Assembly: GCA_951406725.2 (NCBI GenBank)
Contig: OX597817.1
Location: forward strand, 4,836,001-4,900,000
DNA from: Octopus vulgaris
Lineage: Eukaryota
Reading direction: 5' to 3'
Length of the DNA: 64,000 bases
Under the pieces are notes generated by a model. The model did no database searches. It had not been told where the DNA came from and saw nothing but the letters and a program-made list of their open reading frames with translations. This document shows, piece by piece, positions 726 through 63,577 of the stretch; the stretch's first letter is position 1, and every line of letters starts with the position of its first letter. Made by a program: the position numbers and the translations under genes.

Positions 726-1489
726 TAGTTTTTTGTTCATTCTTATCTTCTGACATACACATGTATACCTAACTAACTACGTACATATTGAACAAAAAGT
801 AAAAACAAAGAGGTATTGTGTATTATACTATAATAACAGATAGCGGATGACATTTTACCAGTTATACGTGTAATTCTGTGTGGGCGTGTATAAGAAATAT
901 TAATCTATATTCGTATTTCAAATACAATTAAGATTTAAAATCTCTGTGTTTGACAGTTGTTTTTTTAATGTTTGTTTTCTAAAAATAACCCTCCACCCAA
1001 TATATCAATCGCTATACATCTCTTAATGTTGTGCCTGAAATATAATAGTCCATAGTATTTTATATATACTGGTTGAACAAAAATTTTACTTACACAGAAT
1101 TTAGCGTAACTATATGCCAAATTAAACGCGTAGCAAATAAAAACTAATATATTTTGTTACATTTCTCTAAATATAATTTTCAAATGATGGTCTTTAATCA
1201 ACTAAGTATACAAATATGAAGTTAACTATTTCACTTTCACCTTCGTTTATCGATTATATTCTTTCTTGTTTCATACTGCGTTCCCAGCCTGTATACAGGA
1301 ATTGGTTGTGTCGAAATTCATTTAATGTGAACGCAGGGTTCATTTATATTTTCAAATATATTTAAGTATTATTGACAGGGAACTGGAATTCTATTTTATG
1401 CTTGTTTTGAGTCTCCTATTGTAATCCAGAAATATTTCAATATATGATCTCTATTTTCTCAACATCTATGAGTGTGTGTACCTACGTAT

Positions 1490-1752
1490 ACTCACGCCTT
1501 TGAGAGAGACCTTGAGACTATCCTTGTAGCGCTTCTTCTGCCCTCCGACTTTGCGCCTGCCCTGGCCGAGTTCACCGTAGAAGAGCTGTTTTGGGATGCG
1601 AGTGTCGGACATGCGGGAGACGTGGCCCACCTATCTCAGCTGGGCCTTGCGCATGATTGTGATGGTGCTAGGGAGATCTGCCTGCCTCAGAACTTCCGTG
1701 TCTTGGACTTTGTCCTGCCAGCGGATGTGAAGGAGGTTCCGAAACACCTAAA
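1490..1752 (-). mobile_element. RTE-clade LINE, C-terminal ORF fragment
   Basis: Manual minus-strand translation gives [74 protein letters not shown], the RTE post-RT motif (LRW.GHV.RM...R.PK..YGEL..G.R..G.QKKR.KD.LK). One in-frame stop; GC-rich island. Confidence 0.85.
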
Positions 1753-2899
1753 GTGACCACTACAAGAGAGCATCTTACTACATCCACGACAAAGCTTTAT
1801 TTGTGTTACTAAAGCTCCAAAAAGTAATTGCTATGTTGATTATCAATAAACGTACGTATATTGGTACATCTATCTATCTATATGTGTTGAGGGGGGGCAT
1901 GTGTTCTGTGAGGACAAGTGAAATATTGGAATCGCGTAAAAACTTTATTTATCTGACTTTTACAATGCTGAATGACACTAGTTCATTGATTTTGTTATTT
2001 TATATTACAGTTAAACCAAATCACGACTATATTTTCGATGGTTGATAAAATAACGATTTATGAGAAGCATATATATACTTAATGAAGATCATTAAAGATG
2101 CGAATAAACGACTTTGTTTGAGATTTAAATCTGTTGTGTCAACTCGATTCCCAAATAATTTGCACTTTCCTTGACAGACATTACATTCGTATATAAAATT
2201 ATGTAAGGAAACATTCTTTATTACATTTATCATTTCTTTTCATGTTATTGAATAATCATAATATAAAGAATTTCTACTACGCTCATTCTGCTGATGCCAT
2301 TTACAGAAGTTCATTCTGAACCAGAGAGAAATACATCAGGGCTTTACAATCTTAAATATTCGTCGTGATACACAAGCGCTTTAAAGGTTTCTCATGAAAA
2401 ACACCAGTGAATAAAAAACCGGATTAAGTTCCTATAGATAGTATTGCTGGTAGAATGTAACATTGTAAAGAGTGCCGATAAAATACTGATACGCTGCCAT
2501 ATGTAAATTTTATCATGAATTTTATCTAGCCACATAAAGATAACTGTAGAAAAATCTAGCGAAATCGAGAAAAAATTTACATATTCTTGGGAATTGATTA
2601 AAACCAATACTTTGAGGTTTTGGGTAACATTCTACAAATGATTGATAAATATAAATTACTATGTTCTTAATCTGTACCAAATTGGGCTTCAACAGTTAAG
2701 AATATATGGCCTATGGTTTACTAAGTGGCCTCCTTCAAAGCTACATATATTGTATTCTAGAATTAATAACGCTGCTATGGTTGATAAGATTTAATCCTAC
2801 GTTGTGATGATTCTCGTAGTTATTCTGACCGGGTTCTTTAAGACTTGTGAAAGGAACGGAAGTGAATGCAAATTTTGTGCTTGAAAATCTAGATGGAAC

Positions 2900-4005
2900 A
2901 TGGATATTTTTCCAAGGAGAGTTATGATTTGGTTAGAGGAAAAAGATAAATATTTAGTATGTTGTGTAAAGGAAAATCGTTTTTATTATTCATATCAGAA
3001 AGAAGAATAGAGATCTGTTACAGAAAATGGTAACGCATCCACTTCTTTACGGAGAGGCTACCATATTTCTGTATTAATATTGAGGATTTATTTCGCTGTT
3101 TCTTTCAAGAACACGTTCATTGATTTCTCTTAGAGAAGCCTCAAGGCAAGTAGTACTGTACAAGCATCAATAAGCAGCGAATCATTCCTATAGGATATTC
3201 TGAGTGCATGAACGAATGTTATGAGGACATACTCGTAGTCTACGATGCCGTAACGTACACAGATTACAAGTGTAAATTGTATGGAGACTTGAAGGTGATT
3301 ATATGTTGATGGGAATGCATTCATGATTCACGAAATATTGTTGCTTTTATTCATATGGAACAGTTGGACAACTGCCAAGTATTTTGTGTCATTAGAGTGA
3401 CCTTATCACAATCATACGAGCCTGGATTTCTAGCGTTCAGAGTAAGCAACATGCAAATCCAGAACCTTCTTTCCTCCCCTCCAATTTGTGAAAATACTTG
3501 CCAGGAAAATTTCAGAAGGTATCGAATATATGAAGGCTATGTTTCCAAAAATCTCCGAGGCAAAGTTCGAAGAAGACCTATTCGTAGGGCCGCAATCAAA
3601 AGGACTCTTGAAGGACAGCTTATCTACATCACTGCATGAGACCTATTTTAAACTTGGAAATACTTTGAATGGCTCTGCCAAAAATTCCGAATGACAAAAG
3701 ACCTCCAGAGTTTAGAAATGGAAACCAATGTCTCCTAAACTTTTATGGCGCAATGGACGCTCGCATTTCACTGAAAATCCATTTTCTTGATTCACATTTG
3801 GACTTTTTTTGAAGAGAACCATAGATCAGTATCTCAGGAGAAATGGAAGGGCTTTCATGATATATCATCAATGAAGCAACAATATCAAGAATTTTGGTAT
3901 GAAAGGATGTTAACTGCTTACAATTGGATGTTATACAAGAATAAACCTGAGATAAAGCATCATAGAAACTCTAAAACCCAAAGAATTTTATATGTAGTTC
4001 ACTGA
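2900..4005 (+). mobile_element. Degenerate DNA-transposon transposase, probably Chapaev3 (CMC) type
   Basis: Collinear frameshifted motifs: FIDFS*RSLKA, IPIGYSECMNECYE, GDLKV..MLMGM..FTKYCC, FPKISEAKFEEDLFVGPQ, LKIHFLDSHLDFFEEN..SVSQE..KGFH, YQEFWYERMLTAYNWML. The family assignment is from recalled consensus motifs. Confidence 0.7.
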
Positions 4006-4780
4006 AAAGTATCCTCACATTATTTCGACACAGTGAGTTTCATATTGTACATTGTACAGAAATCTCATGAACGATTTGCATTACGTGACCTGTATGTGAA
4101 AACTACAGGTATCGCTAGCAATGCTATGTACCTTGATAACAATAACTAACTTCAGATCAGTAATCAACATCAGCAATTAATGCAAGAAAGTCGTTTTGCA
4201 AATGTGGTGGTTGGAAAATGTTTCATTGTGTTCACCCGTAATTTTGTTGGTTTTGTTTCCTTAGAAATAGCCAAATGCGGGATTGGGAAGTAGCTAAATA
4301 AATGAAGAAATTGGTAATTTATGTGAATGCATTATCAATCAAATATAAAGTTTATTATAGAAGGTAATTCCAACAGAAGAAGCTAGATTACATCTGCAAT
4401 TCAGCTGACCATTATAAATAGTTAAATTACTCGATGCGGAATCTGAAATGTTGTCTGTCATGATAGATCGTTGAGTTAAGTAATTTTGCTTGATTTCCTG
4501 TACGTAAATGTGTACAGATATTTGAGAAATACATTAGCTAATCCCAGATTACCAGATAAGAAAACAAAGTTTCTTGTAATACATTGAATTTTTCATTAAG
4601 CGTATGCGACACACTCTATTACTGCATGCTGTTTCTTTGCGATATAATTAACTAAACTAAACTCGACATCCGATTTCATCGCTAGGCGTTTTCCTTTTCC
4701 TCCGTATGTAACGAATGAGTATTAAAATATATATACGTACATATGCATACATATATAAACACATACACTCATACACACTT

Positions 4781-4811
<31 letters not shown>

Positions 4812-5039
4812 CAAGCATATTCCAGAGAGGTAGGTGAAGACACAGAGAACATGTATTGACAAAGAGTTCACTTGCCACTTTCCCATGCATTCTCTCAAAT
4901 ATATATGTTCAGCTGTCCTTGCATAAGTCTATGTATATATGTACATAAGCTCACTCCACATGCACTTATATAAGTATGTGTGAATGTATGTATGTATGTA
5001 TGAACGTATGTATATTTATATATACATATACATACATAC

Positions 5040-5146
<107 letters not shown>

Positions 5147-5456
5147 GCAGCCGATGTAAACAGACAAATTTGTTTCCGAAGCGTTGAAATGTATTACAGA
5201 ACAAATAGAATGATAATTTATAAACAACGCGTAGATACTGAACAGTATATATATAAATGATCCTTTTCTTTTTGCTGAGGATTTTTTCTGCTTTTAAAAG
5301 AAAGCAAAAGGATTTAATCCTTTATATATATATTGTTCAGTATCTACGCGTTAATTAAAATTGATCTTACTACTTGTTCTACAATATATATGTGTGTGTG
5401 TGTGTGTGTGTGTATAAACTTACTTGGATGTGTCGCGTTCAATTAAATATGAAGAA

Positions 5457-5492
<36 letters not shown>

Positions 5493-5517
5493 TCTATCTA
5501 TCTATATACATACATAC

Positions 5518-5569
<52 letters not shown>

Positions 5570-5957
5570 TGTCGTGTCTGGGGAGAATCATTTTCTTTTT
5601 GTGCCTTATAATGTAACACACTCACCGGTAAAATTTCCACTTTTTCTTATTTATATTTTCCATCGTGTACGTACGTGATGTATAAAATAATGTGCAACTA
5701 ATGCAACATATTGTACGCCAGATGTACCTTCAGAAATTTGCAAAATTGAAATTAAGCTATATCAGCACCTTAAATCGTCTTCCCTCAAAGCACATCACCA
5801 AAAATGCCAGAAGATTTCCAGGATTCCATTGAAGATACAGAAAGAAACATTGGGAACTTGAGAATAATTCGGTGGAATTGGAACTCAGATGATAGATGAA
5901 ATATCATTTACCATATTCCCGACGTGCATAAAATTCTAACCATGCATTGATTTCAAT

Positions 5958-6387
5958 TTTTGGCACAAGGCCAGCAATTCGGGATTGGGAATAAGACGAT
6001 TACATCGACTCCAGTGTTCAGCAGGTATTTGTTTTATCGAGCCCCGAAATAGTGAAAAGGCAGGTTGACTTCGGCGGAATTTGAACTCAGAACGTAAATA
6101 CTGATGAATTGCCGCTTAGCATTTTTAATGCAGTGCTAATGTTTCTGCTACCCCGCCGCCTTAACCTCACCATATCCTGATTTAAAATGTTGGCACAAAG
6201 CCAGCCATTCTGTGTAGGGAATAAGACGATTTCATCGACCTCAGTGCTCAGCAGGTACTTATATTATCGACCCCAAAATGATGAAAGGCAAAGTCGGTGG
6301 AATTTGAATTCATAACGCAAAGACGGACGAAATGACGCTAAGCATTTTGTCCGGTGCAGTAATTATTCTACTATCTCACCGCCTTAA
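5958..6387 (-). mobile_element. Two tandem copies of tRNA-derived SINE (family A)
   Basis: Copies ~5958-6165 and ~6190-6387 each contain the reverse complement of GTTCTGAGTTCAAATTCCGCC (B-box-like) and the TTTCATC..GGGGTCGATAA..AAGTACC body also seen at 29488-29665. Confidence 0.8.
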
Positions 6388-6647
6388 ACGCACAAAAATA
6401 TTAATAGTTAAGAGCTACACGCGAATGGTTGGTTTCTATAGCGTCGCATATCAGATACACGCACACAAAACAATAGAGAAATCAGCGAATAACAACCTTT
6501 CTGCATAGATTTCTTGAATAAGGGTTCCTAACCCTGGAATATTGAAATTCTAGGTAAAAACTGTCAGCCTGTTGCATTGGCTAGAATTTTAAAATAATAT
6601 AATTAAAACATTTACATATGAGACAATACTTCAGGACAGTTATAGTA

Positions 6648-6701
<54 letters not shown>

Positions 6702-6828
6702 TAAAATTTATAAGTTTAAATTATTCAAATAATTTTTTATTTTTAACTTTTATATTTTTTAATTAATTTTATGTATTGGCTTATGTTTTTCACTCTTTGA
6801 TTTGCCTAATAGTGGTTTTATCTCTAAT

Positions 6829-6900
<72 letters not shown>

Positions 6901-6933
6901 GTGTGCGTGCATATAGGGAGGGAAAGAGTGAAA

Positions 6934-6967
<34 letters not shown>

Positions 6968-8199
6968 TGGATTCCTAAGTGAAATGGAATATCAATCAAA
7001 TAGTGTGAGTGAGAGAAAGAAAGAGAAGGGAAGAGAAAATTTAAGAGAAAAGACAAAAGCAAAACCCGAATTAACATGAATAAATATGAATAGCGAGTAA
7101 GAACTAATGATAAAGTGGGTTAGTTAGTAATTGAATTCCCGTAATTTTGTTAAACGCAGATGCCAGTCAGCAGTCGGTAATCTATTAACACATTAACAAT
7201 GCATGTTTCTTGGATTCCAACATTATTGCTTTGTATTAATACACTACGTTGTGAATGTCACACAGTAAGCGGTAATCTTCGAGCGAGCTGGCACCACAAG
7301 CACAGTTTCAATCACTAGGCGTTTTGATGTAGTCGAATAACGCCCACGTAGATAGTTTGGTGTCATAGATTTGATTTTATTCCGTGTTTATAAATTATCC
7401 TCTGTTGCTAATCGAAAAAAGAAGCTATAATTTTATATATTCTCATCTGCTATTTGAAGTGAAAGGTCAACACAAAACAAATGCAGATTACAAAGTGCTC
7501 TGAGTGTCTACTTGAGGTTGGAGTACATTATCTGACGTCAATAATAACATTAGGAAGACATGAATGTCATATTAGGTTATTTCACATTACTCTAAAATAA
7601 TGATATTTAAGCCTTGTTAGAAACAACCCCCAAAATATTAAATTAAATGAATCTAAGGGAGTAGCAGTGCTGGAGAGAAAACATAAAAGGAAACTTAAAC
7701 CTAAACTAGTTATTTCTTTTTCTTTTAATTTTCAGATAAAAGCAAATTGGAATACATTCGTCAATATTTCAAAAGCTACACTTTTACACTCATTATCGAT
7801 TAAGGTCTTGTACTGCGTCAAACAGTTTGCAGTAGAGTCACATCTGGTTGAGTCACTGCGATGTCCAATCGCCAATCAATATCATGTTATTTTGTTGAGC
7901 ATTAAAATATTTATGCTGTTGTATCTGGTGTATTTAGTTCCGAGTCAGTCCATATTAAGCATCCCAAAAATCAGAATCATTGCCGCTTTCTGCACTCTGT
8001 TTTCTTTTATATATCTAGGGTCAAATTATCCAATATAATCTTCTTGACTAGAATTAAGCGATTCAAAGTAGACCTCACACATGATTCCAGAAAGGTGGGC
8101 AACTGTTCATCCGGCAATATAACTTGTTTTCCTGGAGTTTGTCATTTGGAAATTTTAGACGCTTACACATTTTATTAAATAGACAATACTTAATGTAAA

Positions 8200-8502
8200 G
8201 TGTGGAGGCACATGGCCTAGTGGTTAGAGCAGCGGATTCCCGGTCGAGGGATCACGGGTTCGTATGTCAAACCGGGCGGTGTGTGTGTTTATGAGCAAAA
8301 CATCTAAGCTCCACGTTCCCCGGCAGAAGGTAATGGCGAACTTCTGCTGACTCTTTCCCCACAACTTTCTCTCGCTCTTTGCTCCTTCATTTTGCAGCTC
8401 ACCTGCGACAGACCGGCGTCCCGTCCAGGTGAGGAACCTGTACGCCAAGGAAACTGGGAAACCGGTCCTTTGAGCCAGGCGTGGCTCGCGAAGGAACAAA
8501 CA
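8200..8502 (+). mobile_element. Full-length tRNA-derived SINE (family C) with 12-bp TSD
   Basis: A-box TGGCCTAGTGG and B-box-like GGTTCGTAT; (AAC)-like tail; direct repeat ACTTAATGTAAA at 8188-8199 and 8503-8514. Confidence 0.9.
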
Positions 8503-9417
8503 ACTTAATGTAAAAGTAGGTAATCTTTTGGTTTTGTTTCAAAACCTACCTTTGGGAACCTAGGATAGTCACTTTAAGATAGTTCGGCATATTAAAATTT
8601 CTATACTTCAAAGCCTCTAAATGTAAATACAATAAATTGCATTTTTACTGTAATTTACGTTCTGATATTCCAAAGGTTTCTAATAATGGCGAGGTTCTAT
8701 TTCTTAGTGGCTTTAATGTCTTAGTTTCTTAATTTAATATTTGGTCAGGTGTAACTGGTAAGCACAGTGTAGGCAAGATAAATCGTAATTCACTGCATCT
8801 CATGTCTTTTTCTAATGTATTTAACCTCTCTTGTCACATATACACAGTCCAAACAATCAAATAGGTATAAACAAATTAGATTCGTCTTCTTTCTATGCAC
8901 TTGCATCTAATTTCTCACAAATCAACCATAACTTGACAGAAAGTGATTTCATGAAACTGGTTGGCTGTTATATACACATTCTAATCTGCAAATATGTTTT
9001 GGGAAATATGTTAAGCTTCTAAACTTATAGATGTTGTGTGACAGAAAGCTAAGAATAAAAATCATAAACTCTCGAAATGATATGCAACTTTGGGAAATGT
9101 AAAGAATTGTGAATAAGGTGAAGAATTTTGAAAGTGCAACTTTGAAACTATTTAAATTGCTCCATCAAACGCATCAAGATTAATTTTTAAAAACATTTGA
9201 AATTATGTATCGTATTGATAGGCTAAATACTGCAAACTAACATTAGGTATCTGCAAAAAATGCCTGGTTAAGAAGATTGACCTAGTGATAAACATATCAG
9301 TACAACAGTTTATATTGCGCCCACCAAATAACTAATATTCAATGTATAGCAGATAGTATGTGCATCTATATAGTCTATGAAGCTCTGAAAATTGCGCATT
9401 TCACATATGTATTAAAA

Positions 9418-10075
9418 AAGAGTGTTTATAATTATGAATAAATCATAATTATAACGGTGAGGGTTTCAAAAACCCTTAGATGTTTAGAAAGAGCAGTCAA
9501 AAGCCACTATAAAGCCTCTATTATCACTCATATTATAGCACTTCACAATAAAGCAGTCTGCGAGTGACATGGTTTTTAACATCCACAATTTAAAAATAAA
9601 AGGTTTATTCCCTATTGCAGTTTCGAAGTTAGGAACCTATTATACCATATTATATACCGTATCGTAAAATAACCGATATAAACAATGTAATGGTTCCATT
9701 CCTCTCATCCGGAGAATATTCCAATAGATACAAATTGGAACAAAATCATTCCTTGGGGCCTACAAGTATTCCGACCATCAAGAATAATATGTCAACCACT
9801 ATCTACACATTCCAGTTCGGAATTTCAATATCATGCTCAGCGTTTATCAGAAAAGACCGATAAATGGAGCCACTACAAAATACCGGATATTTTCAAATTG
9901 CGGATGTTTTATGTCATGTCGATTGCAGAGAGCTTTATTGTGAGGAAGTATTATATGAGTGATAATAGGTACTTTATACTGGTTTTTTACTACCATTTCT
10001 AAACATTTCTGAAAAAAGGGGGTTTTGCAACTTCTCAGTTATAATTGTGATTTATTCATAATTTTAAACACTCTT
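9418..10075. mobile_element. Inverted-repeat element, ~180-bp diverged arms
   Basis: 9418-9598 is the approximate reverse complement of 9888-10075 (AAGAGTGTTTATAATTATGAATAAATCA vs TGATTTATTCATAATTTTAAACACTCTT). Confidence 0.75.
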
Positions 10076-10102
10076 CTTGTATTTAATTTATTATTACATT
10101 CC

Positions 10103-10145
<43 letters not shown>

Positions 10146-10150
<5 letters not shown>

Positions 10151-10226
10151 TCTTGATACAACAGAGCCAATCGTCGGCGTTGTAAGTTGATGTCAACAAT
10201 GAAAAATATGATTTTCTCCAGACATG

Positions 10227-10266
<40 letters not shown>

Positions 10267-10291
10267 TAAATATATATATATATACATATAT

Positions 10292-10340
<49 letters not shown>

Positions 10341-10526
10341 TCTTTTACTCTTTTACTTGTTTAAGCCATTTGACTGTGGCCATGCTGGAGCACCGCCTTT
10401 AGTCGAGCAAATCGATTCCAGGACATATTCTTTGTAAGCCTAGTACTTATTCTATCAGTCTCGGAGACGTATACACACCACCATCGGTTGTTAAGCGATG
10501 TTGGGGAGACAAACAGACACACAAAC

Positions 10527-10557
<31 letters not shown>

Positions 10558-10851
10558 CATATATACGACAGGCTTCTTTCAGTTTCCGTCCACCAAATCC
10601 ACTCACAAGGCTTTGGTCGGCCCGAGGCTATAGTAGAAGACACTTGCCCAAGGTGCCACGCAGTAGGACTGAACCCGGAATCATATGGTTCGTAAGCAAG
10701 CTACTTACCACACAGCCCCTCCTACGCCCATAGCCACCCCTATGCCGCCCATTATATATATATATATAAACATGCCTGGAGAAAATCACATTTTTCATTG
10801 TAGACATCAACTTACAACGCCGACGTTTGGCTCTGTTGTATCAAGATATTT
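10146..10851. repeat. ~80-bp inverted repeats enclosing (TA)n and a SINE
   Basis: 10146-10227 vs 10771-10851 are near-perfect reverse complements (AAATATCTTGATACAACAGAGCCAA / TTGGCTCTGTTGTATCAAGATATTT). Confidence 0.85.
10338..10722 (-). mobile_element. tRNA-derived SINE (family B) with internal microsatellite
   Basis: Reverse complement of the 32956-33360 copy (GGCTGTGTGGTAAGTAGCTTG...GGCACCTTGGGCAAGTGTCTTCTACTATAGCC...CAGCATGGCC.CAGTCAAATG). Confidence 0.9.
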
Positions 10852-12330: not shown

Positions 12331-12751
12331 TTTTAAGTATATAATTATAAGAATATAATTATAATTTACGGCGCTGGAATACCATCGCCTAGACATTAGA
12401 AGTAGATGTCAAATTATTTATCTATTCATAACACCAGGTCGAATGCAATGCGAAGTAATGAGCAAGAAGATTAACAAATTTCGTATACTGTAATCCCTGA
12501 AATCTAGCGGCTGCTACGTTCCAAAACCCCACTCGATTTATGAAAATCCACGAAGTAGAACAGGTAATCCTATATCGGATAATCCTATATTATCAGAAAT
12601 TTTGCTCATTACCTCGAATTCGACCTGGGGTTATAAATAGAGAACAAATTTGCAGTGGATTGTAGGTATTTGATATCTACTTCTAACGCATAAGCGCCGA
12701 CATTCCAGCGCCTATTATTATAATTTTGTTTTTATAATTATACACTTAAAA
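12331..12751. mobile_element. Inverted-repeat element, ~135-150-bp diverged arms
   Basis: 12331-12465 vs 12602-12751: TTTTAAGTATATAATTATAA / TTATAATTATACACTTAAAA, CCAGGTCGAAT / ATTCGACCTGG, GTAATGAGCAA / TTGCTCATTAC. Confidence 0.75.
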
Positions 12752-13639: not shown

Positions 13640-13805
13640 AGGTAACTGCGCCTTTTTTCTCTCCTTGTTTTTTGTGTACCTTCCTGTAGAAGAGCGTAGG
13701 CTCGAAACGTAAAAGACTTTTCTATTCCTCAGCGTTATACTAATACATCTGTTTGCTTTGTACACCACCTGTCTTCGTCTTTTGTTTTTTTCGTAAACTT
13801 TCCAT
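13640..13805 (+). mobile_element. PLE-associated terminal repeat with minimal HHR-like motif (13679-13716)
   Basis: CCTTC-CTGTAGAA-GAGC GTAG GCTC-GAAACGTA-AAAGA; flanks homologous to 31110-31290, 45360-45572 and 63390-63577; ends at (TA)n. Confidence 0.75.
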
Positions 13806-24823: not shown

Positions 24824-26426
24824 TTGGGTCATCCCCTAAATAATGCGGTTTTTTAATACTTCTTTTATTTTTCTTATGTAAGATAAACAGAGTTCATTTT
24901 TTATCTAAAACTAGCAGTATCGCCCGGCGTTGCTCGGGTTTGTAAGGGAAATAACTATATAAGCATTTTTAGAGAGTTATAGCCAAAAAATAGCAAAAAA
25001 TGCATTAAAAATGGAAAAAAAAATTATGGTAATTTTTTTTTTAATCGTTGACTCATCGTAGTCATTTTTAGAGAGTTACTTCCCTTATATAATAGCGAAA
25101 AAATGCATTAAAATGGAAAAAAATGATGGTAAATTTTTCTTTTAATCGTAGACTTATCGTAGACGCGCGCTAATACCCAGAAGGGCTCGATATGAATAAC
25201 AACTATAAGATACCCGGTTTTGGTTAAACTGCACCGCAAAATGTGGGAGTAGTTAGGAATCTAGATCGTACGAGACAGACACACAACTTGACTTTTATAT
25301 ATAAAGATATACTCTCCATCATTTTCTACAATGCTCTTTCATATATCTACCAGATATATAAATTCACTTGTCCGTTACGAAAAATACTACTTCAGTACTG
25401 TTTTGACCCCGTCTACAGAATTCCTGTTATTCTGTCCAAATGATTTTGAAGATTGCGGAATAAATGACAATCAGATGGGGCAAAGTCCGGCGAATACGGT
25501 GGGTAGAGCATCGTTTCCCATTCACACTGCTCCTGCCTTTGGAATGTCATCCTCGCTGTATGTGGCCGAGCATTATCCTGATGGAAGAACACCTTTCGTC
25601 TTCAAACCAAAGATGCTCGTTTTCCTTCTGGCGCTGACTTAAACCGCCCAAGGTGCTCGTAGTAGATCTCCTTTCTTATCGGTTGGTTTTGGTTTAAAAG
25701 TTCAAAGTGGAATAAACTTTTCACTAAACAGATAAGAACACTTTATGTCATTGAAGACTTGGGTGCCAGTGTCTCTCGTTTCTCAACTCACTGTCTTGAG
25801 TGCTTGACATTTTCATAGAGAGCCCATTTCTCGTCACCCGCCACTATTCTGTCCAGAAAAGGTCCATTCGTAAGACGCGTCAGCAAAGAAGAGTGCACAT
25901 TCACTCTCTGCGTGCAGTTACACTCGGAAAGTTTGTGAAGACCCCACTGACCCAATTTGTTGAATTTTCCGATGGTACGTAGGTGTCGATGAATGGTTGC
26001 ATGCCCAAATCCAAGCTTCTCTGCTAGTTCCTCAACATTTACGACGGGATTTTGTTCCACGGGGTTTGCGGGACCTCCTCGTCGAGCTCTACAGGTTTTC
26101 CAGGTCGAGACTCGTCTTGTAGGCTGTAGTTTCCAGCTCGGAATTTCTGGAACCTGCGTTGACACTGGCTTACTCTTATTTTCCGATATCCATATCCTGC
26201 ATTAATATTCCTCGTACTTTCCGGTGCGTTTATGCTTTTATTGAACTCATAAATGAAAATAAGCCGAATATGCTCTTCTGTCACTTCCACTACAACTTTG
26301 AAAAAATAACTGTTAAAATGGAGCTGGACTCTTTAAAACGTGTACTAAGAATACCTAAAAGGTAAAATTACTACTTGCTTTTATAGCAAGTTGATGCAAC
26401 ATCACATTATTTATAGGATGACCTAA
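24824..26426 (-). mobile_element. Full-length mariner (DD34D) transposon, frameshifted transposase
   Basis: TIRs TTGGGTCATCCCCTAAATAATG / CATTATTTATAGGATGACCTAA with TA flanks. Motifs: HIRLIFIYEF, GQWGLHKL (WVPHEL-like), RIVAGDEKW, FHQDNARPH, PPYSPDFAPSD. Confidence 0.93.
24911..25307 (-). mobile_element. Non-autonomous Helitron nested in the mariner
   Basis: On the minus strand it starts TC and ends CTAG, with subterminal hairpin CCCGAGCAACGCCGGG; inserted between A and T without a TSD; second copy at 56942-57325. Confidence 0.85.
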
Positions 26427-40715: not shown

Positions 40716-41165
40716 AGATTTAGGGTATGGAGTATGGGAAATCCGGGCCACCTATGTTTCATAGCTAGTGGAAACTCAGAAGTGGTAAAATCCAAGTGAG
40801 ATGTATACTGCCAACTGCTCTTCAGGCCAAGGATATTTTGATAAGATTAAAGGCAACACCTTACCGCTTCTGATGTTACACTCGCTATGAAACATATGTA
40901 GCCCAGATTTTACGCACTCCATTCCGTAACTATTGCATTCTTTTCGCACACTTGGCAACCCTTTTTGCCTACCGAGTAATATAAAAAGAACTTTTTTTTC
41001 AGTGCAGTGTTCTCCCATAAAAGAAAAAAAAATATCTGTAAGCCTTCCGTCTCAATAAACTACTAAACTGCCCGAAACTAAATTTCTTCCTACACATCGA
41101 TCCATGGATCTTACATATATATAGATTTATAGATGTGTGGGGGAGGGGGGCATGTGTGTATGCGT

Positions 41166-43152: not shown

Positions 43153-43448
43153 TTCTACACACACACACACAGACACACACACAAACACACACACATTATT
43201 TATGTATATAAAAAAGACTGAGGGCGATATCTAACAAAAGTGTTGCTAAAAATAAGAGTCAAAAGCAACTGATAGCCATATTAGCGCACCGTCTGTAAAT
43301 AAGACGGTGCGTTAATGTAGCGATAAGTTGTTTTATACTCTTATTTCTAGCAATACTGGTGCTGAATAGTGTCCTTTGTCGTTTTAGTGACGTATAGTTG
43401 CCTTTCGGTTGAAAAGTTGCTAACAAGCCACCTTGACTATTTGTAATG

Positions 43449-45599: not shown

Positions 45600-46510
45600 A
45601 AGAAAAGGGAGGAGGTGAATTTCGATTATCCTCACGTGGTCAGTTGAGTTGTTAATGCAAAAAAAAAACGAAACATAAGTAAAATAAAAAAAAATTAAAA
45701 TGCAAGCAGTTTACAAAGTTTTGATATATTTCAAATGAAAGAATTTTGTGGTTGTCGACTGGTTTCTCTTTCGCTAATCATGACGTTGAAGTTATTGTAA
45801 TTTTGTATTTTGTTAAGAAGATTTTAGTCCATGATTTTGTATGAGAGTTTGTGAAAGAATCAACAAGTATGAATATCTAAGAGAAGGCAATTAGTGATAG
45901 TTCTTACTCGGAACAGGGGAGGTAACTGCTCATATTTGGGTTGGGATAAGTAAACATACAAAAACTCATAAGCTAAAGTAGTAAGATGAAATGTGTACAG
46001 TGATGGATATGGGATCAGGAATTAGAATATATACTCAGACCAAAGTCGGTTATGAATTCATATTTAGGCGTGTTTTATATTTTTTGATAAATATTTTTTC
46101 TATTTAACCGTTTTTATGCAGAAATTGTTTCTCTGCACTGGTAGATAGGGAAGACTGTGAAATTTTTAAAGAGATTCCCTGCATATCTTTCTATGTATTC
46201 ATTCAAAAGTATCTGTCTATAGTTTGGGAAATAGGAAATGGATCTGTTCCTTCTGTAGTGTGTTTTTATCCTATATAGTTATGCCTACCACCTGAACAAT
46301 TTATAACAATCAATTAAATTCTCGGATGCAGAAGTTAAATTGGCTTTAAGTGTGAACCTCTCTCCTTGATTGAACTGGAATTCCGAACCTTCCAATAGAT
46401 TGGGGTATGTGCACAGTTTGGACGTTCACATGTGTAAAGCTTCGCATTTGTCAGAAGTTTTTTCAGCGATTTGGGTTACTTTTTACATTTAATAAATTCA
46501 TGTGTTTTCA
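45600..46510 (-). mobile_element. Penelope-like element 3' part (degenerate GIY-YIG, 3' UTR, minimal HHR-like motif at 45754-45784)
   Basis: Minus strand: CERPNCAHTP-like Cys motif and VINCSGGRHNYIG*; downstream GTC-ATGATTA-GCGAAAGA-GAAACCAGTC-GAC. Confidence 0.65.
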
Positions 46511-46529
46511 GCTTAAGCATCTTCCAAAA

Positions 46530-47088
46530 ACAACCGATGAAGAGATCATTTGTTTCCTTCGATGCTATTAATCTTTATACTAATATCCCACATGACTACG
46601 GACTAGAAGCAATAAAAATCTGGCTAGAAAAGTACCCCGAAGAACTTTCGGGACGCATAAATGAAGTTTTTGTTATTGAAACTTTAAAATTTATACTTCA
46701 GAACAACTATTTCATATTTGATGACACTTATCAACGATTGTGAAATTACAATGGGAACGAAAGCAGCCCCTGTTCTTGCGAACTTAATAATCGGATATTT
46801 TGAATTAACCATATATGAAGCGTCACTGTAAAAATATGGATATCCATTTCATCATTATGTAAGAGAAAACTGGAATTGATATATGAATGACTGCTTTATC
46901 ATTTGCAATGAGACCATTGATACACTTTTTGAATTCAAATCAATACTAAATTGGATAAACCCTAACATTCAGTTTACATTGGACTATAGCAAAGAACAGC
47001 TCACTTTCTTAGATATTCTGATAAAAAATATCAGTAACCAAATTGTAACTGACACTTATCATAAACCAACGCACTCGAAGCAATATTT
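46530..47088 (+). mobile_element. Penelope-like reverse transcriptase fragment
   Basis: FVSFDAINLYTNIPH..GLEAI..., LKFILQNNYFIF, MGTKAAPVLANL, YMNDCF (YIDD-like), INPNIQFT...LTFLDI...TDTYHKPT.SKQYL. Confidence 0.9.
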
Positions 47089-47368
47089 GTGTATGTATGT
47101 ATGTATGTATGTATGTATGTATGTATATATGTATCTCTGCTTGTGTGTTTTTCTCTCTGTGTCTATCTTTTACTATTACTTGACAACCGGTATCTATGTG
47201 TTTACGTCATCGTAACTTAGCGGTTCGGCAAAAGTGAACGACAGCATAAGTTCCAGACTTTAAAAAATAGATATTATGATCGACTCACTTGACTAAAAAT
47301 TCCCCCAAGGCGATGCCCCTACATGGCTGCAGTGTAATGACTGAAACTAGTACAAGTAAAATGTATAT

Positions 47369-54128: not shown

Positions 54129-54302
54129 ACAAAAACCTTTAGATTCACTTTAATATTTAAAATTAATTTGTCAAAATATTTCCGTAGCTTTGAAACCGCA
54201 ACCTGTTCACCGAGAAAATTCTGCGAACAGGTCGCGGTTTCAAAGCGACGAAAATATTTCACAAATTAAGTTTAAATGTTGAAGTGAATCTAACGGTTTT
54301 GT
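54129..54302. repeat. ~170-bp imperfect palindrome (hairpin)
   Basis: AAAACCTTTAGATTCACTT...GCTTTGAAACCGCAACCTGTTC / GAACAGGTCGCGGTTTCAAAGC...AAGTGAATCTAACGGTTTT. Confidence 0.9.
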
Positions 54303-54473
54303 GTCATTTCAAATGACTTATAAATACCTTCCACGTTATAATTGTTTTTTTTTTGTTTCAGCACACTATTTCAGATACAGTCTCTTGCTATGCAAGTACA
54401 TCGCCGTAATATGTAACCAGATGCGAATCGTTGGCGATTTTTTCCCGTCTTCTTTTCTATTGGACTTTCCTCT

Positions 54474-54508
54474 GTTTCTGAAGAAGAGCTTTGTTCGAAA
54501 CGTAAGAC
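54474..54508 (+). ncRNA. Minimal type I hammerhead motif (in repeat ~54400-54612)
   Basis: GUUU-CUGAAGA-A-GAGC UUU GUUC-GAA-ACGU-A-AGAC: full core, extra A before stem II, palindromic ACGU stem III, GUA triplet. Confidence 0.7.
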
Positions 54509-55378
54509 CATGTTTCTTTCCTTCCCTGAGTGTCTGCTATTACTTTACATGTACCACGTCCTTGCGTTGTATTTTTTTGTTTGTTCTTCGTTTTATTTTT
54601 ATTTTATTTACTATATATATATATAACATTTTAGGTACAATGTTATACATATAAGATTCCAATACCGTATGAGTAAAATCCAATAGTATTTAAAATTGGT
54701 CATTCCAAGTATAGAGTTTATACACAGTGTTATTGAATCAAGGGTTTTATTAAAGTGACCTAAAAATAGGGAGTATATTAGTAAGGTCAAATTGAAAACA
54801 GGAAAAGAGGTACAAAGAAAGAGAAAAAGAAGAGAAAAAAGAGAAAAAAGAGAGAAGGAGAAGAAAGAAGAAAATAACAAAAGAAATAAAAATTAAAAAA
54901 CAAGAAGAGAGGAAAAAGGAAAGAAAGAAATAAAAAAAGAGATAAAAAGATAAGGATAAGGGAAAGTGTATCAGTTAGTGGTCAGTGGAGATAATTTGAA
55001 AGTACGAGTGGGGAGATAAATGGTGATAGAGAGAGAGAAAGGTATTAGAATGTAAAAAGATAGAAGGAATGAGGGTGATAAAAGGTAAAGGAGTGACAAA
55101 TGTGTTGTGATAGTGTCTAAGTGATGGGGCAGCGGGAAAGTTAGCAGTAAGGAATTAAGGATTTAGGAATTTAGATGGTTTGGCAGGTCAGTGCTTAGTA
55201 ATATATGAAAATATATGTGATGATGTAAACATATGTATATATTAGACATGTATATATGAATATATATTATAGTTAATCCAAACAAGAAAACACAAAAAAA
55301 AACAAAAAAAAACACAACTCGAGGACGTGGAACAAATACAGTATTATTGGACGCTCAGGAAAGAAGGGAAGAAGGAGG

Positions 55379-55413
55379 GTTTAACGTTTCGAGCGGAGCT
55401 CTTCGTCGGAAAC
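55379..55413 (-). ncRNA. Minimal type I hammerhead-like motif (in repeat ~55270-55482)
   Basis: GUUU-CCGACGA-A-GAGC UCC GCUC-GAA-ACGU-U-AAAC: perfect stems I and II, U4->C. Confidence 0.65.
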
Positions 55414-55590
55414 ATAGGAGAAGGAAAGATCCCGAGAAGAGGAGACAGAGGAAAAACATCGCCAACGGTACTCACGAGGTCACATATATATATATATATT
55501 AATATATATAAGGGTAGCAAAAATATTCTAGAAAAAATTCTCCGCTACTAGCGGTCTAGTGAGAAAGGAAAGATAGTCAAAGACTATATA

Positions 55591-56030
55591 ATATACATTC
55601 AACAATATAAGGAATGGCCCTGATAGGCCATTCGACTCACTAGAAAGACCAGCCAAACTCAAACCGCTAAATAGTAGAGATTCTGAAATTGAAAGACAAA
55701 TAAAAACATTTACCCTTTTCATCTCTGGACTATGCATAGTTTCGACAAATTTGTAAACAAATTAATTAAATTAAATTAAATTTATTTACAACTGGCGTGT
55801 CTCGTCAGCAGAGAAGCCGAGGACTAGAATATGTCCACGAGGCAACAGCAAGGAAGCCTCAAGCCTATATGCTCGAAATTTTCAAAATCCACCGCCACTA
55901 CGCGGTCTTCAATTGTTTTTATTTCTCTTTCAATTTCAGAATTACAACTATTTAGCGGTTTGAGTTTGGCTGCTCTTTCTAGTGAGTCGAATGGCCTATC
56001 AGGGCCATTCCTTATATTGTTGAATATATA
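55591..56030. mobile_element. Inverted-repeat element (~120-bp arms) enclosing a hammerhead ribozyme
   Basis: 55591-55710 and 55912-56030 are near-identical reverse complements; (TA)n-rich sequence on both sides. Confidence 0.85.
55722..55814 (-). ncRNA. Intact type I hammerhead ribozyme
   Basis: RNA: UCUCUG-CUGACGA-GAC-[AU-rich hairpin]-GUC-GAA-ACUAUGCAUAGU-C^CAGAGA. All core nucleotides present; 6-bp stem I; palindromic stem III; GUC triplet. Confidence 0.88.
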
Positions 56031-56198
56031 TATATATATATTATACAAATATATATATATATACAAATATTTATACGGATGTTTATACATGTCAATATAT
56101 ACACACAACTCCAACTGGTCTGTATAGGCACAAATGCGCACCCACATATGCGTGTATCTGCATGTATTTGTATATATATACATATATATACATATATA

Positions 56199-56847
56199 TG
56201 TTCCTGGATCTTAAGAATTTTTCGGTCCAGAGAACAAGGTGTCATCATACCACTTTTCTCCTCCTTTGTACGGCCACACCTCGAATACTGCTGCCCACTG
56301 TGGTCTCCCCATACAAGACAAAACATCTCGGGGATTGAATCACCCCAGAATTGAAGGCATGGCTGCTCTCGATTATTGGGATCGCCTTAAAACCTTGAAA
56401 CTCTACTCTCCTCATTTACAAGATGTGGAGAATGTACCACCAACTTTGCCCAAACGACCTGAACATTAGCTTCAAGGTTCATCCAAGACTGGGACCACGG
56501 GCCATACGTCCCTTGCCCAGTTCAAGATCACAGCACACATGTACACTGCAACATAATTTCTTTTCCTCAACAGGCCCTGCCCTATTTAACATTGTCCCGA
56601 AAGAGATCAAAGAGGAAAAGGATCCCATCAACTTTAAACGGAGTCTGGATGGATTCCTTCAAGGAATACCAGATAAGCCACCCATAATTGGATACAACTC
56701 ACCCAACAAAAACTCACTACTTGAATGGACCATAAACAAAACTTGACTTAAACAGGATTCAAATAATCCTATCAGGTGGTACTATTAGGTTAGACATGGC
56801 CTGGACCAATCTTTGATCGAAACATATCTAAGTTTATCTAAGTTTAT
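56199..56847 (+). mobile_element. CR1-group LINE 3' fragment
   Basis: WILRIFRSRE...LFSSFVRPHLEYCCPLWSPH...IESPQ; LDYWDRLKTLKLYS; tandem tail ATCTAAGTTT x2. Confidence 0.85.
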
Positions 56848-56950: not shown

Positions 56951-57325
56951 AAAAGTGATGTTGTGTGCTGTCTGTCTCCTACGATTTAGATTCCTAACTA
57001 CTCCCACATTTTGCGGTGCAGTTTAACCAAAAGCGGGTATCTTATAGTCGTGATTCATATGGAGCCCTTCTGGGTATTAGCGCGCGTTTATGATGAGTCT
57101 ACGATTTAAAAAAAATTACCATCAATTTTTCCCATTTTTAATGCATTTTTAGCATATATAAGGGAAGTAACTCTCTAAAAATTTATTATTAAATCTCAGA
57201 ACGTAAAAGTAACACCCCCCTTTGTGGTTAGCCATATTGAAATGGCTATTATACTTTACAACTCTAAAAATGCTTATATAGTTATTTCCCTTACAAACCT
57301 GAGCAACGCCGGGCGATACTGCGAG
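56942..57325 (+). mobile_element. Non-autonomous Helitron copy
   Basis: Reverse complement of 24911-25307; 3' end CCTGAGCAACGCCGGGCGATACTGCGAG (CTAG->CGAG). Confidence 0.8.
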
Positions 57326-57682
57326 TATATATATAGATATGTTTATATATATATATGCATTTATGTATATGTATATATATAGATACGTGTTGGGCCAAGC
57401 CTGACCTTTGTTGGTTCGACTACCATCCGGGTAACATCTATATTCCTCGTCCCTACCGTAAGGCTTTACTTCCACACACGCCAGCTTAATATAATTCGTC
57501 CTTAGTCGAAAGACACCTGTTGTTATGTCCGGTTTATTGCAGGTGTATTTGTGTAATATTTCACCATTTTTTTCCGTCCTTGTTTTCTTTGTCTCGTCTG
57601 CCTGGATGTTTTGTTGTCCCTTTTTTGTATCCCCAATCGTCTGGATGTTTTGCGTTCTTGTCCCATTTTTGTATTATATATA

Positions 57683-57757
57683 TATAATCAAAGTAAGCAA
57701 CAAGGATATCCAAGGTACCATATACATTGGATATCCTTGTGGCTTATTTTGATTATA
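57683..57757. repeat. ~75-bp hairpin
   Basis: TATAATCAAAGTAAGCAACAAGGATATCCAA / TTGGATATCCTTGTGGCTTATTTTGATTATA. Confidence 0.85.
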
Positions 57758-58052
57758 ATCATCCCATTTGATTTATATGGATAATACCATACCAAATTCT
57801 GGTGCATTTAACTTAAGTACCATATACATCTGAATCTAAATTTGCTGAACTATATATATATATATATATATTGGCAAAACACCGATTGTATAAGTACACG
57901 GCTTACAGAGAATAGATCTTGGGCCCGATTTCTTCGATTAAATTAAGTGCTCCAGTTTGACCGCAGTCACATGACAGAAACAAGTAAAACAATAAAAATA
58001 CTGCCATATTAATCCCGAGGAACGCCGGATATCTCTGCTAGAATATATATGA

Positions 58053-61956: not shown

Positions 61957-62504
61957 ATACATATATATATGTGTGTGTGTTTGTGAATAAATTCTTTTAT
62001 TCTTTTACTAGTTTCAGTTATTTGACTGCGGTCATGCTAGAGCACCACTTTTAGTTGAACAAATCGACCCCTTACTTATTTTTTGCTAGTAAAGTAGGAT
62101 CTAGTTTTTTTTTTTCATTTGCAAAATATGCAGTTTTTAAAAGACAGTAAAAATCTGAAAATCGGCTATAATAATGTAGCCTTCCAGTCTCATTGCTTTG
62201 AAAGTATAACTTTGTGGAAAAAAATTGGAGAAAACAGTTACAGAGGTTTAAAAATCGAAAAACTCTAATTCTTTTTTGCAAATAGCGAGACAGAAATTTT
62301 CTGCGTTTATAGGAGCGCCGTCAACTTTAAAAGTTGTACCCTCTGAAATTGAAAGTTTTGCGTCTGACCTGTTCACTGTAGGTTTCTAAATAAGCAGAAA
62401 TACGTAAGAAAATCAACACGTATCATCTTAGTGTTTCTTTTGTCTCTTCAGTAATTCTACGGTTTTATTATTATTTTAAATTTATTATATTTATATATTT
62501 GTCC

Positions 62505-63577
62505 GTATGTGTTCCCTTGCTCCCGCCCACGATGTCGCACATGCGCTTACCTCTCCAACACTACCCCCCTCACAAGCATCCATCATCGACCTTATCATAT
62601 CACTGACTCCTTCACTTCCACTTCATCTACTGCATTTCTTGCTCTCTGTCCTTCTCTAGACAATCGTCAAACGGGAAGACGCTTGGCTGACCGGTTCGCG
62701 GGAAAACTCCGAGACATCAGACTCGGCAACGACATCCCTTTGTCGCGCCATTTTACAACATCTATCTGTGTTCGGATTGTCCTTGCACAGGGTCCATCCG
62801 GACTCCCGTCTCCGGCGTGAGCAGGGATTAATCTTCTCTCTTCGCACCTTTGCTCCACATAGGCTCAAATCCTCTCCCCTCTTCATTTAACCCTCCTCCT
62901 CTCTTTCTCTTCCTCTCACACCTACTTCCTACTACCCACCTCTCATATGGCTCTGGCACCTACTTCCTCTCTTCATTCCTACCCACTTCTCTCTTCCACC
63001 CTCTCCCTTCATCGTCACCCCTCCCTCATTACCCACTCCTAAACATTCCAACCCCAACATCCATATATATATCTCATCTCACCCGCACTCCATCCCTTAG
63101 ACCTCACCCTTGCTTCCCCAACTCTCCACTCCCCCACACCCAACACCACACCACCACACCACATCACACTAACCCGCACACACTAGCATTAACCAAGTCA
63201 CAGCACCTACACCATCATCCACACACCTATACATGCAGACACGCAAACGTCAAGGTCACCAGCCCTCTCCTCACACAGATACACGCTCTTACATACACAT
63301 GTACACGCGCCTTCATTTTGGGATCACCACTACTTTATTATCTCCCATTTATCATAGCTCTCCTGTGTGACTCCTCTGTACGGCATTCGACTTGATAGAT
63401 CGCTAGCCATTAAACCCTTTTCTATTTTCTCCCTGTTTATTTCTGTGTTCCTTTCTATCGAAGAGCGTAACCTCGAAACGTAAAAGTCTTTCTCACTTCC
63501 CGAGCGTTAAACTAATACATCTGTTCGTTGCTTACACATCCCTCTTCGTCTTTTGATTTTTTTGTAAATTCTCACTA
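62505..63577 (+). mobile_element. 5'-truncated Penelope-like element: GIY-YIG remnant, C-rich UTR, terminal repeat with HHR-like motif (63451-63486)
   Basis: FPCSRPRCRTCAYL...ITDSFT.TS....QTGRRLADRF..LRDI....P.SRHF; then CTTT-CTATCGAA-GAG CGTAAC CTC-GAAACGTA-AAAG; ends in (TA)n. Confidence 0.85.

What the first reader, a model, noticed from the sequence alone, without database searches (positions are those of the whole stretch)
55520..56030. Recurrent architecture: long inverted arms around a hammerhead, inserted in (TA)n
Seen: the intact HHR lies between ~120-bp inverted arms (each with internal hairpin GAATGGCCCTGATAGGCCATTC); a short direct repeat CCGC.ACTA.GCGGTCT occurs near 55542 and 55892. 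Two other inverted-repeat elements with unrelated arm sequences (9418-10075, 12331-12751) also have HHR-like remnants just inside an arm. Inference: several families of protein-free, ribozyme-bearing foldback retroelements, probably PLE pseudo-LTR derivatives. They would be misclassified as MITEs and could make long dsRNA (ADAR or siRNA substrate).
Basis: partly seen in the sequence, partly recalled or inferred. Interest (0 to 1): 0.7.

Follow-up and report, generated by a model that had tools for sequence, protein, structure and literature searches.

The report
Head-to-head Penelope-type hammerhead insertion
This hairpin-shaped stretch is two shortened, mirror-image copies of the end of a common repeat that carries a hammerhead-ribozyme motif, likely pasted together into a TA microsatellite by a Penelope-type jumping-gene enzyme; the layout is already described, and the arms are likely a by-product of this one insertion rather than fixed ends of a new family.

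Summary
The main observation holds: 114-nt inverted arms (108 of 114 identical), a complete type I hammerhead motif on the minus strand, a 25-nt direct repeat and (TA)n flanks. The idea of 'foldback families' does not. Contigs from public runs of four organism codes show one repeat family with two alternative 3' ends, with or without an 86-99-nt tail. Five contigs continue past this copy's inversion junction into other family sequence, and one contig inverts at different points. This is the published insertion footprint of Penelope-like elements (PLEs): an inverted 5'-truncated copy, a one-sided tail and a (TA)n target. The hammerhead has 0 of 43 variable positions against 30 of 291 around it. 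It looks canonical, as in retrozymes, rather than minimal, so the donor RNA is likely non-autonomous; its full unit and enzyme partner are unknown. The element at 9415-10078 has a credible decayed hammerhead in the same position; the one at 12331-12751 does not. Cleavage, transcription, circles and editing are untested. This scan has noted the same layout before, in this genome and in others. Verdict: a new member of a known kind, low to moderate interest.

The parts
55484..55498 (.). Left (TA)n target microsatellite
   Evidence: sequence
55499..55597 (-). One-sided 3' tail of the long copy, 86-99 nt; its outer end lies between 55499 and 55512 because it merges into TA
   Evidence: Family sequence: contigs span tail and arm (pieces 22, 31; pieces 1, 2, 9-12, 17-19, 25); 13 X2 contigs run from the tail end into TA-rich sequence (table 7)
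55534..55557 (.). Direct repeat copy 1, in the tail; includes a small GC hairpin
55598..55711 (-). Left arm = 3'-terminal part of the long copy; short 3' end at 55598
   Evidence: 11 X1 contigs have (TA)n directly against this end (table 7)
55612..55633 (.). Sub-terminal GC hairpin (mirror copy 55989-56010); candidate RT recognition or start element (inferred)
   Evidence: two loop positions and one stem position vary in about 40-80% of laid depth
55722..55814 (-). Type I hammerhead motif: helix I 55814-55809/55727-55722, core 55808-55802, helix II 55801-55798/55747-55744 with AU-rich insert, GAAA 55743-55740, palindromic helix III, predicted cut after 55728
   Evidence: 0 of 43 positions variable at >=20%
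55815..55910 (-). 5' part of the long copy, truncated at 55910
   Evidence: 3 X1 contigs and 2 X8 contigs continue with other shared sequence (table 7)
55884..55908 (.). Direct repeat copy 2, next to the inversion junction; predicted to pair with arm segment ~55660-55698 in the sense RNA
55911..56024 (+). Right arm = inverted, 5'-truncated short copy without tail; its 5' end corresponds to 55711, 16 nt past the predicted cut site
   Evidence: 2 X6 contigs continue this arm into hammerhead-side sequence (table 7)
56025..56066 (.). Right (TA)n target microsatellite, directly abutting the arm
   Evidence: sequence
9415..10078 (.). E1: older inverted-arm element of another family (arms 9415-9598 / 9888-10078, 77%)
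9606..9718 (-). E1 decayed type I hammerhead (core U4 changed to G; cut after 9613), just inside the left arm as in E3
12331..12751 (.). E2: old inverted-arm element (80%); hammerhead not confirmed
55290..55483 (-). Neighbouring, unrelated and far more abundant repeat end with a minimal hammerhead (core at 55409); second copy near 54420-54600 (+)

Best explanation
E3 is two 5'-truncated copies of the 3' end of one hammerhead-bearing repeat, joined head to head inside (TA)n, likely laid down in a single insertion by the reverse transcriptase and GIY-YIG endonuclease of a Penelope-like element. Shown: the anatomy; that tail, arm and hammerhead are contiguous family sequence; that the family has two 3' ends; that other copies continue past 55910. 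Inferred from PLE biochemistry (PMC11167929): the enzyme would nick both strands of the AT-rich target and prime cDNA on each from two internal start sites in the RNA. The long start gives the left copy with tail (about 400-410 nt). The short start gives the right copy (114 nt). The two unfinished cDNAs would then be joined at 55910|55911, which produces the 'arms'. The donor RNA is more likely a non-coding, retrozyme-like non-autonomous element (about 60%) than the pLTR of a coding PLE (about 40%). The hammerhead is predicted to cut best as a dimer through its palindromic helix III, and would process tandem transcripts of the donor rather than act at this locus.
For: Two 3' ends: TA-rich loose ends at the arm end (X1, 11 contigs at 55608 and 11 at 55591) and at the tail end (X2, 13 contigs). 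Junction not fixed: 3 X1 and 2 X8 contigs continue beyond 55898-55910 with the same other sequence; 2 X6 contigs extend the right arm into hammerhead-side sequence; 1 X7 contig inverts at 55612/55895. Summed contig depth falls about 14-31-fold from the arm to the 5' part, and the tail holds 0.22-0.48 of the arm's depth, in 4 of 4 runs (weak, depth is not copy number). Hammerhead positions: 0 of 43 variable vs 30 of 291, Fisher p=0.013. The single-copy sense RNA folds at z=-5.5, 0 of 100 shuffles. Published footprint: inverted 5'-truncated copy, one-sided tail, (TA)n bias (PMC8557442; PMC3846280; PMC8969392). A PLE-type RT remnant lies in the same window: 46540-46740 is 63-75% identical to cephalopod proteins that have sub-cut-off RVT_1 hits; the DKG motif is seen in P0003.
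Against: No genome was held, so no whole copy other than this one was seen, and no listed contig spans the locus. The junction evidence is 8 short contigs from truncated tables (24 of 241 loose-end rows shown, 24 of 528). The tail is 86-99 nt against the published 30-40. No partial tandem and no ORF link this family to a PLE enzyme. Rfam does not recognise the hammerhead. The depth gradient could reflect subfamily divergence and the masked 55753-55791 stretch. The variant count mixes private changes of this copy with subfamily differences. A TSD cannot be read in (TA)n.
Confidence: 0.82

Rival explanations
1. Same insertion mechanism, but the donor is the 3' pLTR of an autonomous, protein-coding PLE rather than a non-coding element. 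This is compatible with the main mechanism and concerns only the donor.
For: The family continues 5' of 55910 for an unknown length. A 64-codon frame opens with ATG at 55722, just after the hammerhead, and PLE ORFs start near their hammerhead. PLE RT remnants are present.
Against: The hammerhead is canonical (6-bp helix I, 4-bp helix II, no extra base at 9/10.1), whereas metazoan PLE pLTRs mostly carry minimal ones, as the neighbour does. The 64-aa frame has no relative among 174 candidates (weak). By my reading of the codons, the common variants at 55603, 55620, 55622 and 55628 all change the residue, and 1-nt deletions occur in the frame.
Confidence: 0.35
2. One reading: the whole foldback (both arms plus hammerhead) is a fixed non-autonomous family that is re-mobilised as a unit.
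For: Arms are 95% identical and share the same subfamily alleles at 55603-55628. PLE enzymes can move pLTR-flanked cassettes in trans (PMC3846280). E1 has the same geometry.
Against: Depth over the junction bin is near zero (55910-55924: 0-44 vs about 1,000-10,600 at 55880-55894; this bin is also the end of the stretch laid). No listed contig crosses the junction. Five contigs continue differently and one inverts elsewhere. The window holds no second copy.
Confidence: 0.08
3. A MITE (DNA transposon) with 114-nt terminal inverted repeats and a TA target duplication that captured a hammerhead.
For: Long near-perfect inverted repeats; TA on both sides; mariner-type transposase remnants in the window (PF17906).
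Against: The family runs beyond the left 'TIR' into a tail on one side only. The arm is contiguous with a conserved hammerhead in other copies, and the internal structure is not fixed.
Confidence: 0.04
4. The unit is a 350-nt retrozyme monomer and the direct repeat is the overlap of a 1.1-unit tandem.
For: Repeat spacing is 350 nt, close to published monomer sizes (PMC7229834) and to 355-360-nt units in earlier, unchecked notes on this genome.
Against: What follows 55910 in other copies is not the sequence that follows repeat copy 1. The repeat is only 80% identical over 25 nt while the arms are 95%. No 'goes back' joint is listed.
Confidence: 0.05
5. Assembly or library fold-back artefact.
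For: No listed contig spans the locus.
Against: The arms differ at 6 of 114 sites, whereas a chimera would be identical. The right arm has its own (TA)n end.
Confidence: 0.01

Closest known systems
Inverted-pLTR insertions of endonuclease-bearing Penelope-like elements (Arkhipova et al. 2013 PMC3846280; Craig et al. 2021 PMC8557442; passages read)
   Same: Inverted 5'-truncated copy joined head to head, tail on one end only, microsatellite target, type I hammerhead near the 3' end.
   Different: No ORF and no direct pLTR in this copy; tail 86-99 nt instead of 30-40; canonical rather than minimal hammerhead.
Poseidon_Ac of Anolis (Frangieh et al. 2024 PMC11167929; parts 1-2 of 4 read)
   Same: Two internal RT start sites define the tail; both strands of AT-rich DNA are cut and extended; initiation in a stem-loop.
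   Different: There the hammerhead and tail overlap the ORF start and the start sites are 30-40 nt apart; here no coding link was found.
Metazoan non-LTR retrozymes (Cervera and de la Pena 2020 PMC7229834, passages; Li, Clavereau and Pollet 2026, 10.64898/2026.07.22.740005, parts 1-3 of 5)
   Same: Apparently non-coding, AT-rich, highly structured repeat with a canonical type I hammerhead; proposed to be PLE-mobilised; dispersed monomers are known.
   Different: Defined by tandem units each with a hammerhead and by circular RNA; this copy has one hammerhead, no tandem, and an unknown unit longer than about 400 nt.
MITEs
   Same: Short, non-coding, long inverted ends, TA context.
   Different: Asymmetric ends, variable junction, conserved ribozyme motif.

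Membership tests
PLE-type (EN+) insertion | Inverted 5'-truncated copy joined at the 5' end | tested here: met
PLE-type (EN+) insertion | Optional tail at one end only (two 3' ends) | tested here: met
   table 7; length 86-99 nt exceeds the published 30-40
PLE-type (EN+) insertion | Type I hammerhead near the 3' end | tested here: met
   (motif only; no Rfam hit)
PLE-type (EN+) insertion | AT-rich or (TA)n target | tested here: met
   sequence; TA-rich loose ends in other copies
PLE-type (EN+) insertion | Variable 5' truncation | tested here: inconclusive
   8 contigs and a depth gradient point that way; no whole copies seen
Autonomous PLE | RT plus GIY-YIG ORF upstream of the 3' repeat | not testable with these tools
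   absent from this copy; sequence beyond 55910 known for 30 nt only; no genome held
Autonomous PLE | Partial tandem forming a direct pLTR | tested here: not met
   only a 25-nt direct repeat in this copy
Non-LTR retrozyme | Canonical type I hammerhead | tested here: met
   against the description in PMC4209133
Non-LTR retrozyme | Non-coding | tested here: inconclusive
   64-aa frame without relatives (weak); 5' part of the family unseen
Non-LTR retrozyme | Tandem monomers each with a hammerhead | tested here: not met
   one hammerhead in this copy; 350-nt period not supported; family-level tandems not testable
Non-LTR retrozyme | Self-cleavage and circular RNA | not testable with these tools
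   only contigs were available
MITE | Inverted repeats form both termini | tested here: not met
   family tail extends beyond the left arm
MITE | Fixed internal structure across copies | tested here: not met
   other copies continue past or invert away from 55910 (few contigs)
MITE | Fixed-length TSD | tested here: inconclusive
   unreadable inside (TA)n

The most novel reading that the evidence does not exclude
The hammerhead sets the length of the inverted arm. One cDNA is copied from uncut RNA and reads through the ribozyme; the other runs off the 5' end of a self-cleaved RNA, so arms stop just short of the cut site (16 nt in E3, 2-14 nt in E1). Both start sites are read from one signal: ATATAAGG lies 7 nt inside the short end and, likely, the long end. 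The tail-matching repeat at the junction (E3 and 57687-57753) marks how the two cDNAs are sealed. This would give PLE hammerheads a direct role in integration.
Probability: 0.15. Interest if true: 0.6.

Novelty: new member of a known kind. Interest (0 to 1): 0.27.

Why it matters
Practically, such insertions will be mis-called MITEs. A 2026 octopus repeat annotation used MITE finders, and its main text has 0 hits for 'hammerhead' or 'ribozyme' (PMC13282606). Mechanistically, the function of PLE hammerheads and the origin of the inverted structures are stated as open (PMC8557442). A family with two well-separated 3' ends, a conserved canonical hammerhead and many inverted copies lets one test whether inversion points pile up at the cut site. 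If read through by transcription, the 114-bp duplex could be an editing or small-RNA substrate, but that is untested.

Tried and rejected
Own-genome search and file: no genome held. Rfam: 0 matches at gathering score in 64 kb; no hammerhead family among 7 and 22 weak hits. Exact 24-nt hairpin motif: 0 matches in metagenome and viral contigs. Family 5' continuation motif: 0 matches in the window. tRNA head: 0 genes. Expression: no RNA holder listed. X11 is only a guessed RNA run; its contigs cover the family and show 12 A>G places against 13-15 in the other three runs; contigs cannot show expression or editing, so this is no evidence either way. 350-nt tandem period: not supported. Tail as a duplicate of the arm: 678 and 119 of 1000 shuffles score as well, so the shared ATATAAGG end motif (3 of its 6 window occurrences lie at E3's three ends) is a post-hoc lead only. 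64-aa frame: no homolog. Stretch 62512-62817, which I recalled as GIY-YIG-like: no Pfam hit and no homolog among 234 candidates, so unconfirmed. E2 hammerhead: rejected; E1 and E2 spacers fold no better than shuffles (z -1.4 and -0.6). Earlier-findings look-ups by sequence or relatives found nothing for E3 or E1. The arm-difference list was off by one base and was replaced. The right-hand TA distance for E3 (24) is a script artefact; the arm abuts TA.

Full report
Setting. The window is 35% GC and rich in microsatellites. An RT remnant at 46540-46740 is 63-75% identical to four proteins, three of them labelled Octopus sinensis or Argonauta. Earlier, unchecked notes on this genome also call it octopus.

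Observation. E3 has arms at 55598-55711 and 55911-56024, 108 of 114 identical, each with the named hairpin. A type I hammerhead lies on the minus strand: helix I 6 bp, core CUGACGA, helix II 4 bp with a 50-nt AU-rich insert, GAAA, a 12-nt palindromic helix III, and a predicted cut after 55728. It scores 15 in my descriptor, and no hit in 12 shuffled windows reached 12. The hammerhead fold lies 2.1 kcal/mol above the local optimum, and helix III can self-pair as a duplex at -15.9 kcal/mol. Rfam does not report it; I infer this is due to the long helix II insert. The direct repeat is 55534-55557 vs 55884-55908, with 1 of 2000 shuffles as good. The right arm abuts (TA)n. E1 has a decayed hammerhead in the same position (score 9; 0.58 null hits per 64 kb at that score). 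E2 has none above chance.

What the other copies show. Twenty of the 24 listed runs hold part of 55290-56035, under four organism codes; that stretch includes an abundant neighbouring repeat. On 55505-55925 alone, 788, 757, 618 and 368 contigs were laid from X1, X2, X7 and X8. (a) Tail, arm and hammerhead overlap in contigs, so the tail is family sequence (pieces 7, 16, 22, 23, 31; pieces 1-32). (b) There are two 3' ends: (TA)n directly at the arm end (X1, two rows of 11 contigs) and TA-rich sequence at the tail end (X2, 13 contigs). (c) The junction is not a family feature. Three X1 contigs and two X8 contigs, from two organism codes, go on past 55898-55910 with the same other sequence. Two X6 contigs extend the right arm into hammerhead-side sequence. 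One X7 contig inverts at 55612/55895. (d) Summed depth is about 14-31 times higher over the arm than over the 5' part, and the tail has 0.22-0.48 of the arm's depth, in 4 of 4 runs; the tool warns that this is not copy number. (e) Of the places where at least 20% of depth differs, 0 fall in 43 hammerhead positions and 30 in 291 surrounding positions, p=0.013. I left the helix II insert out of that count; it was mostly skipped by the tool and holds 2 variants from single contigs. Limits: only 24 of 241 loose-end rows and 32 of 2552 pieces were shown, and no listed piece spans the locus.

Mechanism. The layout matches published PLE insertions: an inverted 5'-truncated copy at the 5' end, a tail at one end only, and microsatellite targets (PMC8557442; PMC3846280; PMC8969392; passages read). 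In vitro, the Anolis Poseidon protein cuts and extends both strands of AT-rich DNA and starts at two internal RNA sites that delimit the tail; its hammerhead is not needed for insertion (PMC11167929). I therefore infer one event: a long cDNA from the outer start on one strand, a short cDNA from the inner start on the other, both incomplete and joined at 55910|55911. The 'two fixed starts, one per strand' reading was also in earlier notes on this genome; I reused it and tested only the two-ends part. Arkhipova 2013 offers self-priming on an antisense template as another route to the same structure, which I cannot exclude. Each end has a hairpin a short way inside it, in line with stem-loop initiation, but this is inference.

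Donor. The hammerhead is canonical, as described for retrozymes, while metazoan PLE pLTRs mostly have minimal ones, like the neighbour at 55409. The single-copy sense RNA is strongly structured (z -4.0 and -5.5). Repeat copy 2 pairs with the arm in either arm's allele form (-28.2 and -26.5 kcal/mol; 0 of 500 shuffles as good for the latter). The direct repeat may therefore be an intrinsic pairing motif. A templated junction filler remains possible, since a second foldback at 57687-57753 has a 13-nt exact junction-tail repeat (2 of 9 foldbacks tested). A 64-codon frame after the hammerhead has no relatives. A 350-nt monomer is not supported. I favour a non-autonomous, retrozyme-like donor at about 60%, but do not file it as a retrozyme, because the tandem criterion is not met here and circles are untested.

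dsRNA. A read-through transcript is predicted to form the arm duplex (-251.8 kcal/mol, z -21.5). In that fold the hammerhead helix I is not formed. Nothing here shows transcription or editing of this locus.

Novelty. The architecture is in print for PLEs, and PLE mobilisation of retrozymes is proposed in print (10.64898/2026.07.22.740005). Searches listed no paper on hammerhead repeats in octopus, judged from listings and the passages cited. The octopus repeat annotation lists 31 recently active PLE families and has no mention of ribozymes in its main text. Earlier scan notes report the same layout in this and other genomes but no look-alike of this sequence, so the family may be uncurated. 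What remains of interest is the long tail, the arm ends close to the cut site in E3 and E1 (one counter-example, the X7 joint), and the junction-tail repeat. Verdict: new member of a known kind, interest 0.27.

Noticed in passing
window 57670-57870: Mini foldback: (TA)n, 67-nt palindrome, ~97-nt one-sided tail, (TA)n. The 13-nt spacer 57715-57727 is repeated exactly in the tail at 57817-57829 (0 of 500 shuffles), the same geometry as the E3 direct repeat.
   Followed up: partly
window 5198-5380, 40720-40929, 43211-43385, 54132-54300: Further short foldbacks with a TA run close to one arm and a longer gap on the other side; possibly the shortest form of the same head-to-head insertion. No hammerhead passed the descriptor in them.
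   Followed up: partly
window 9415-9455 and 12331-12370: E1 and E2 arms begin with a similar AT-rich TATAATT hairpin (0 of 1000 shuffles; AT-rich, so treat with care). E2 is flanked by TTAA on both sides and could be a true DNA element.
   Followed up: partly
window 55290-55483 (-) and 54420-54600 (+): Two copies of a very abundant repeat end with a minimal hammerhead; the one next to E3 has core CCGACGA, and position 55408 differs in about a quarter to a third of laid depth.
   Followed up: partly
window 46438-47100 (+): Broken PLE-type reverse transcriptase remnant, 63-75% identical to cephalopod proteins.
   Followed up: partly
window 62455-62820 and 63440-63500 (+): Frame with CxxC that I recall as PLE linker/GIY-YIG-like (no database support), followed by a repeat end with a minimal-hammerhead-like motif that also occurs near 13651, 31110 and 45404.
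   Followed up: partly
window 25788-26332 (-): Mariner-type transposase remnant (PF17906, E=1.8e-12).
   Followed up: no
window 56205-56746 (+): Fragment that I recall as the C-terminus of a LINE reverse transcriptase; no Pfam hit.
   Followed up: no
window 24911-25295 and 56952-57325: Two copies of one repeat in opposite orientation 32 kb apart, 90-100% identical in three blocks.
   Followed up: no
window 55598-55711: At 5 of the 6 arm differences the left arm carries the rarer allele among laid contigs in most runs and the right arm the common one; three of the five form one cluster.
   Followed up: no
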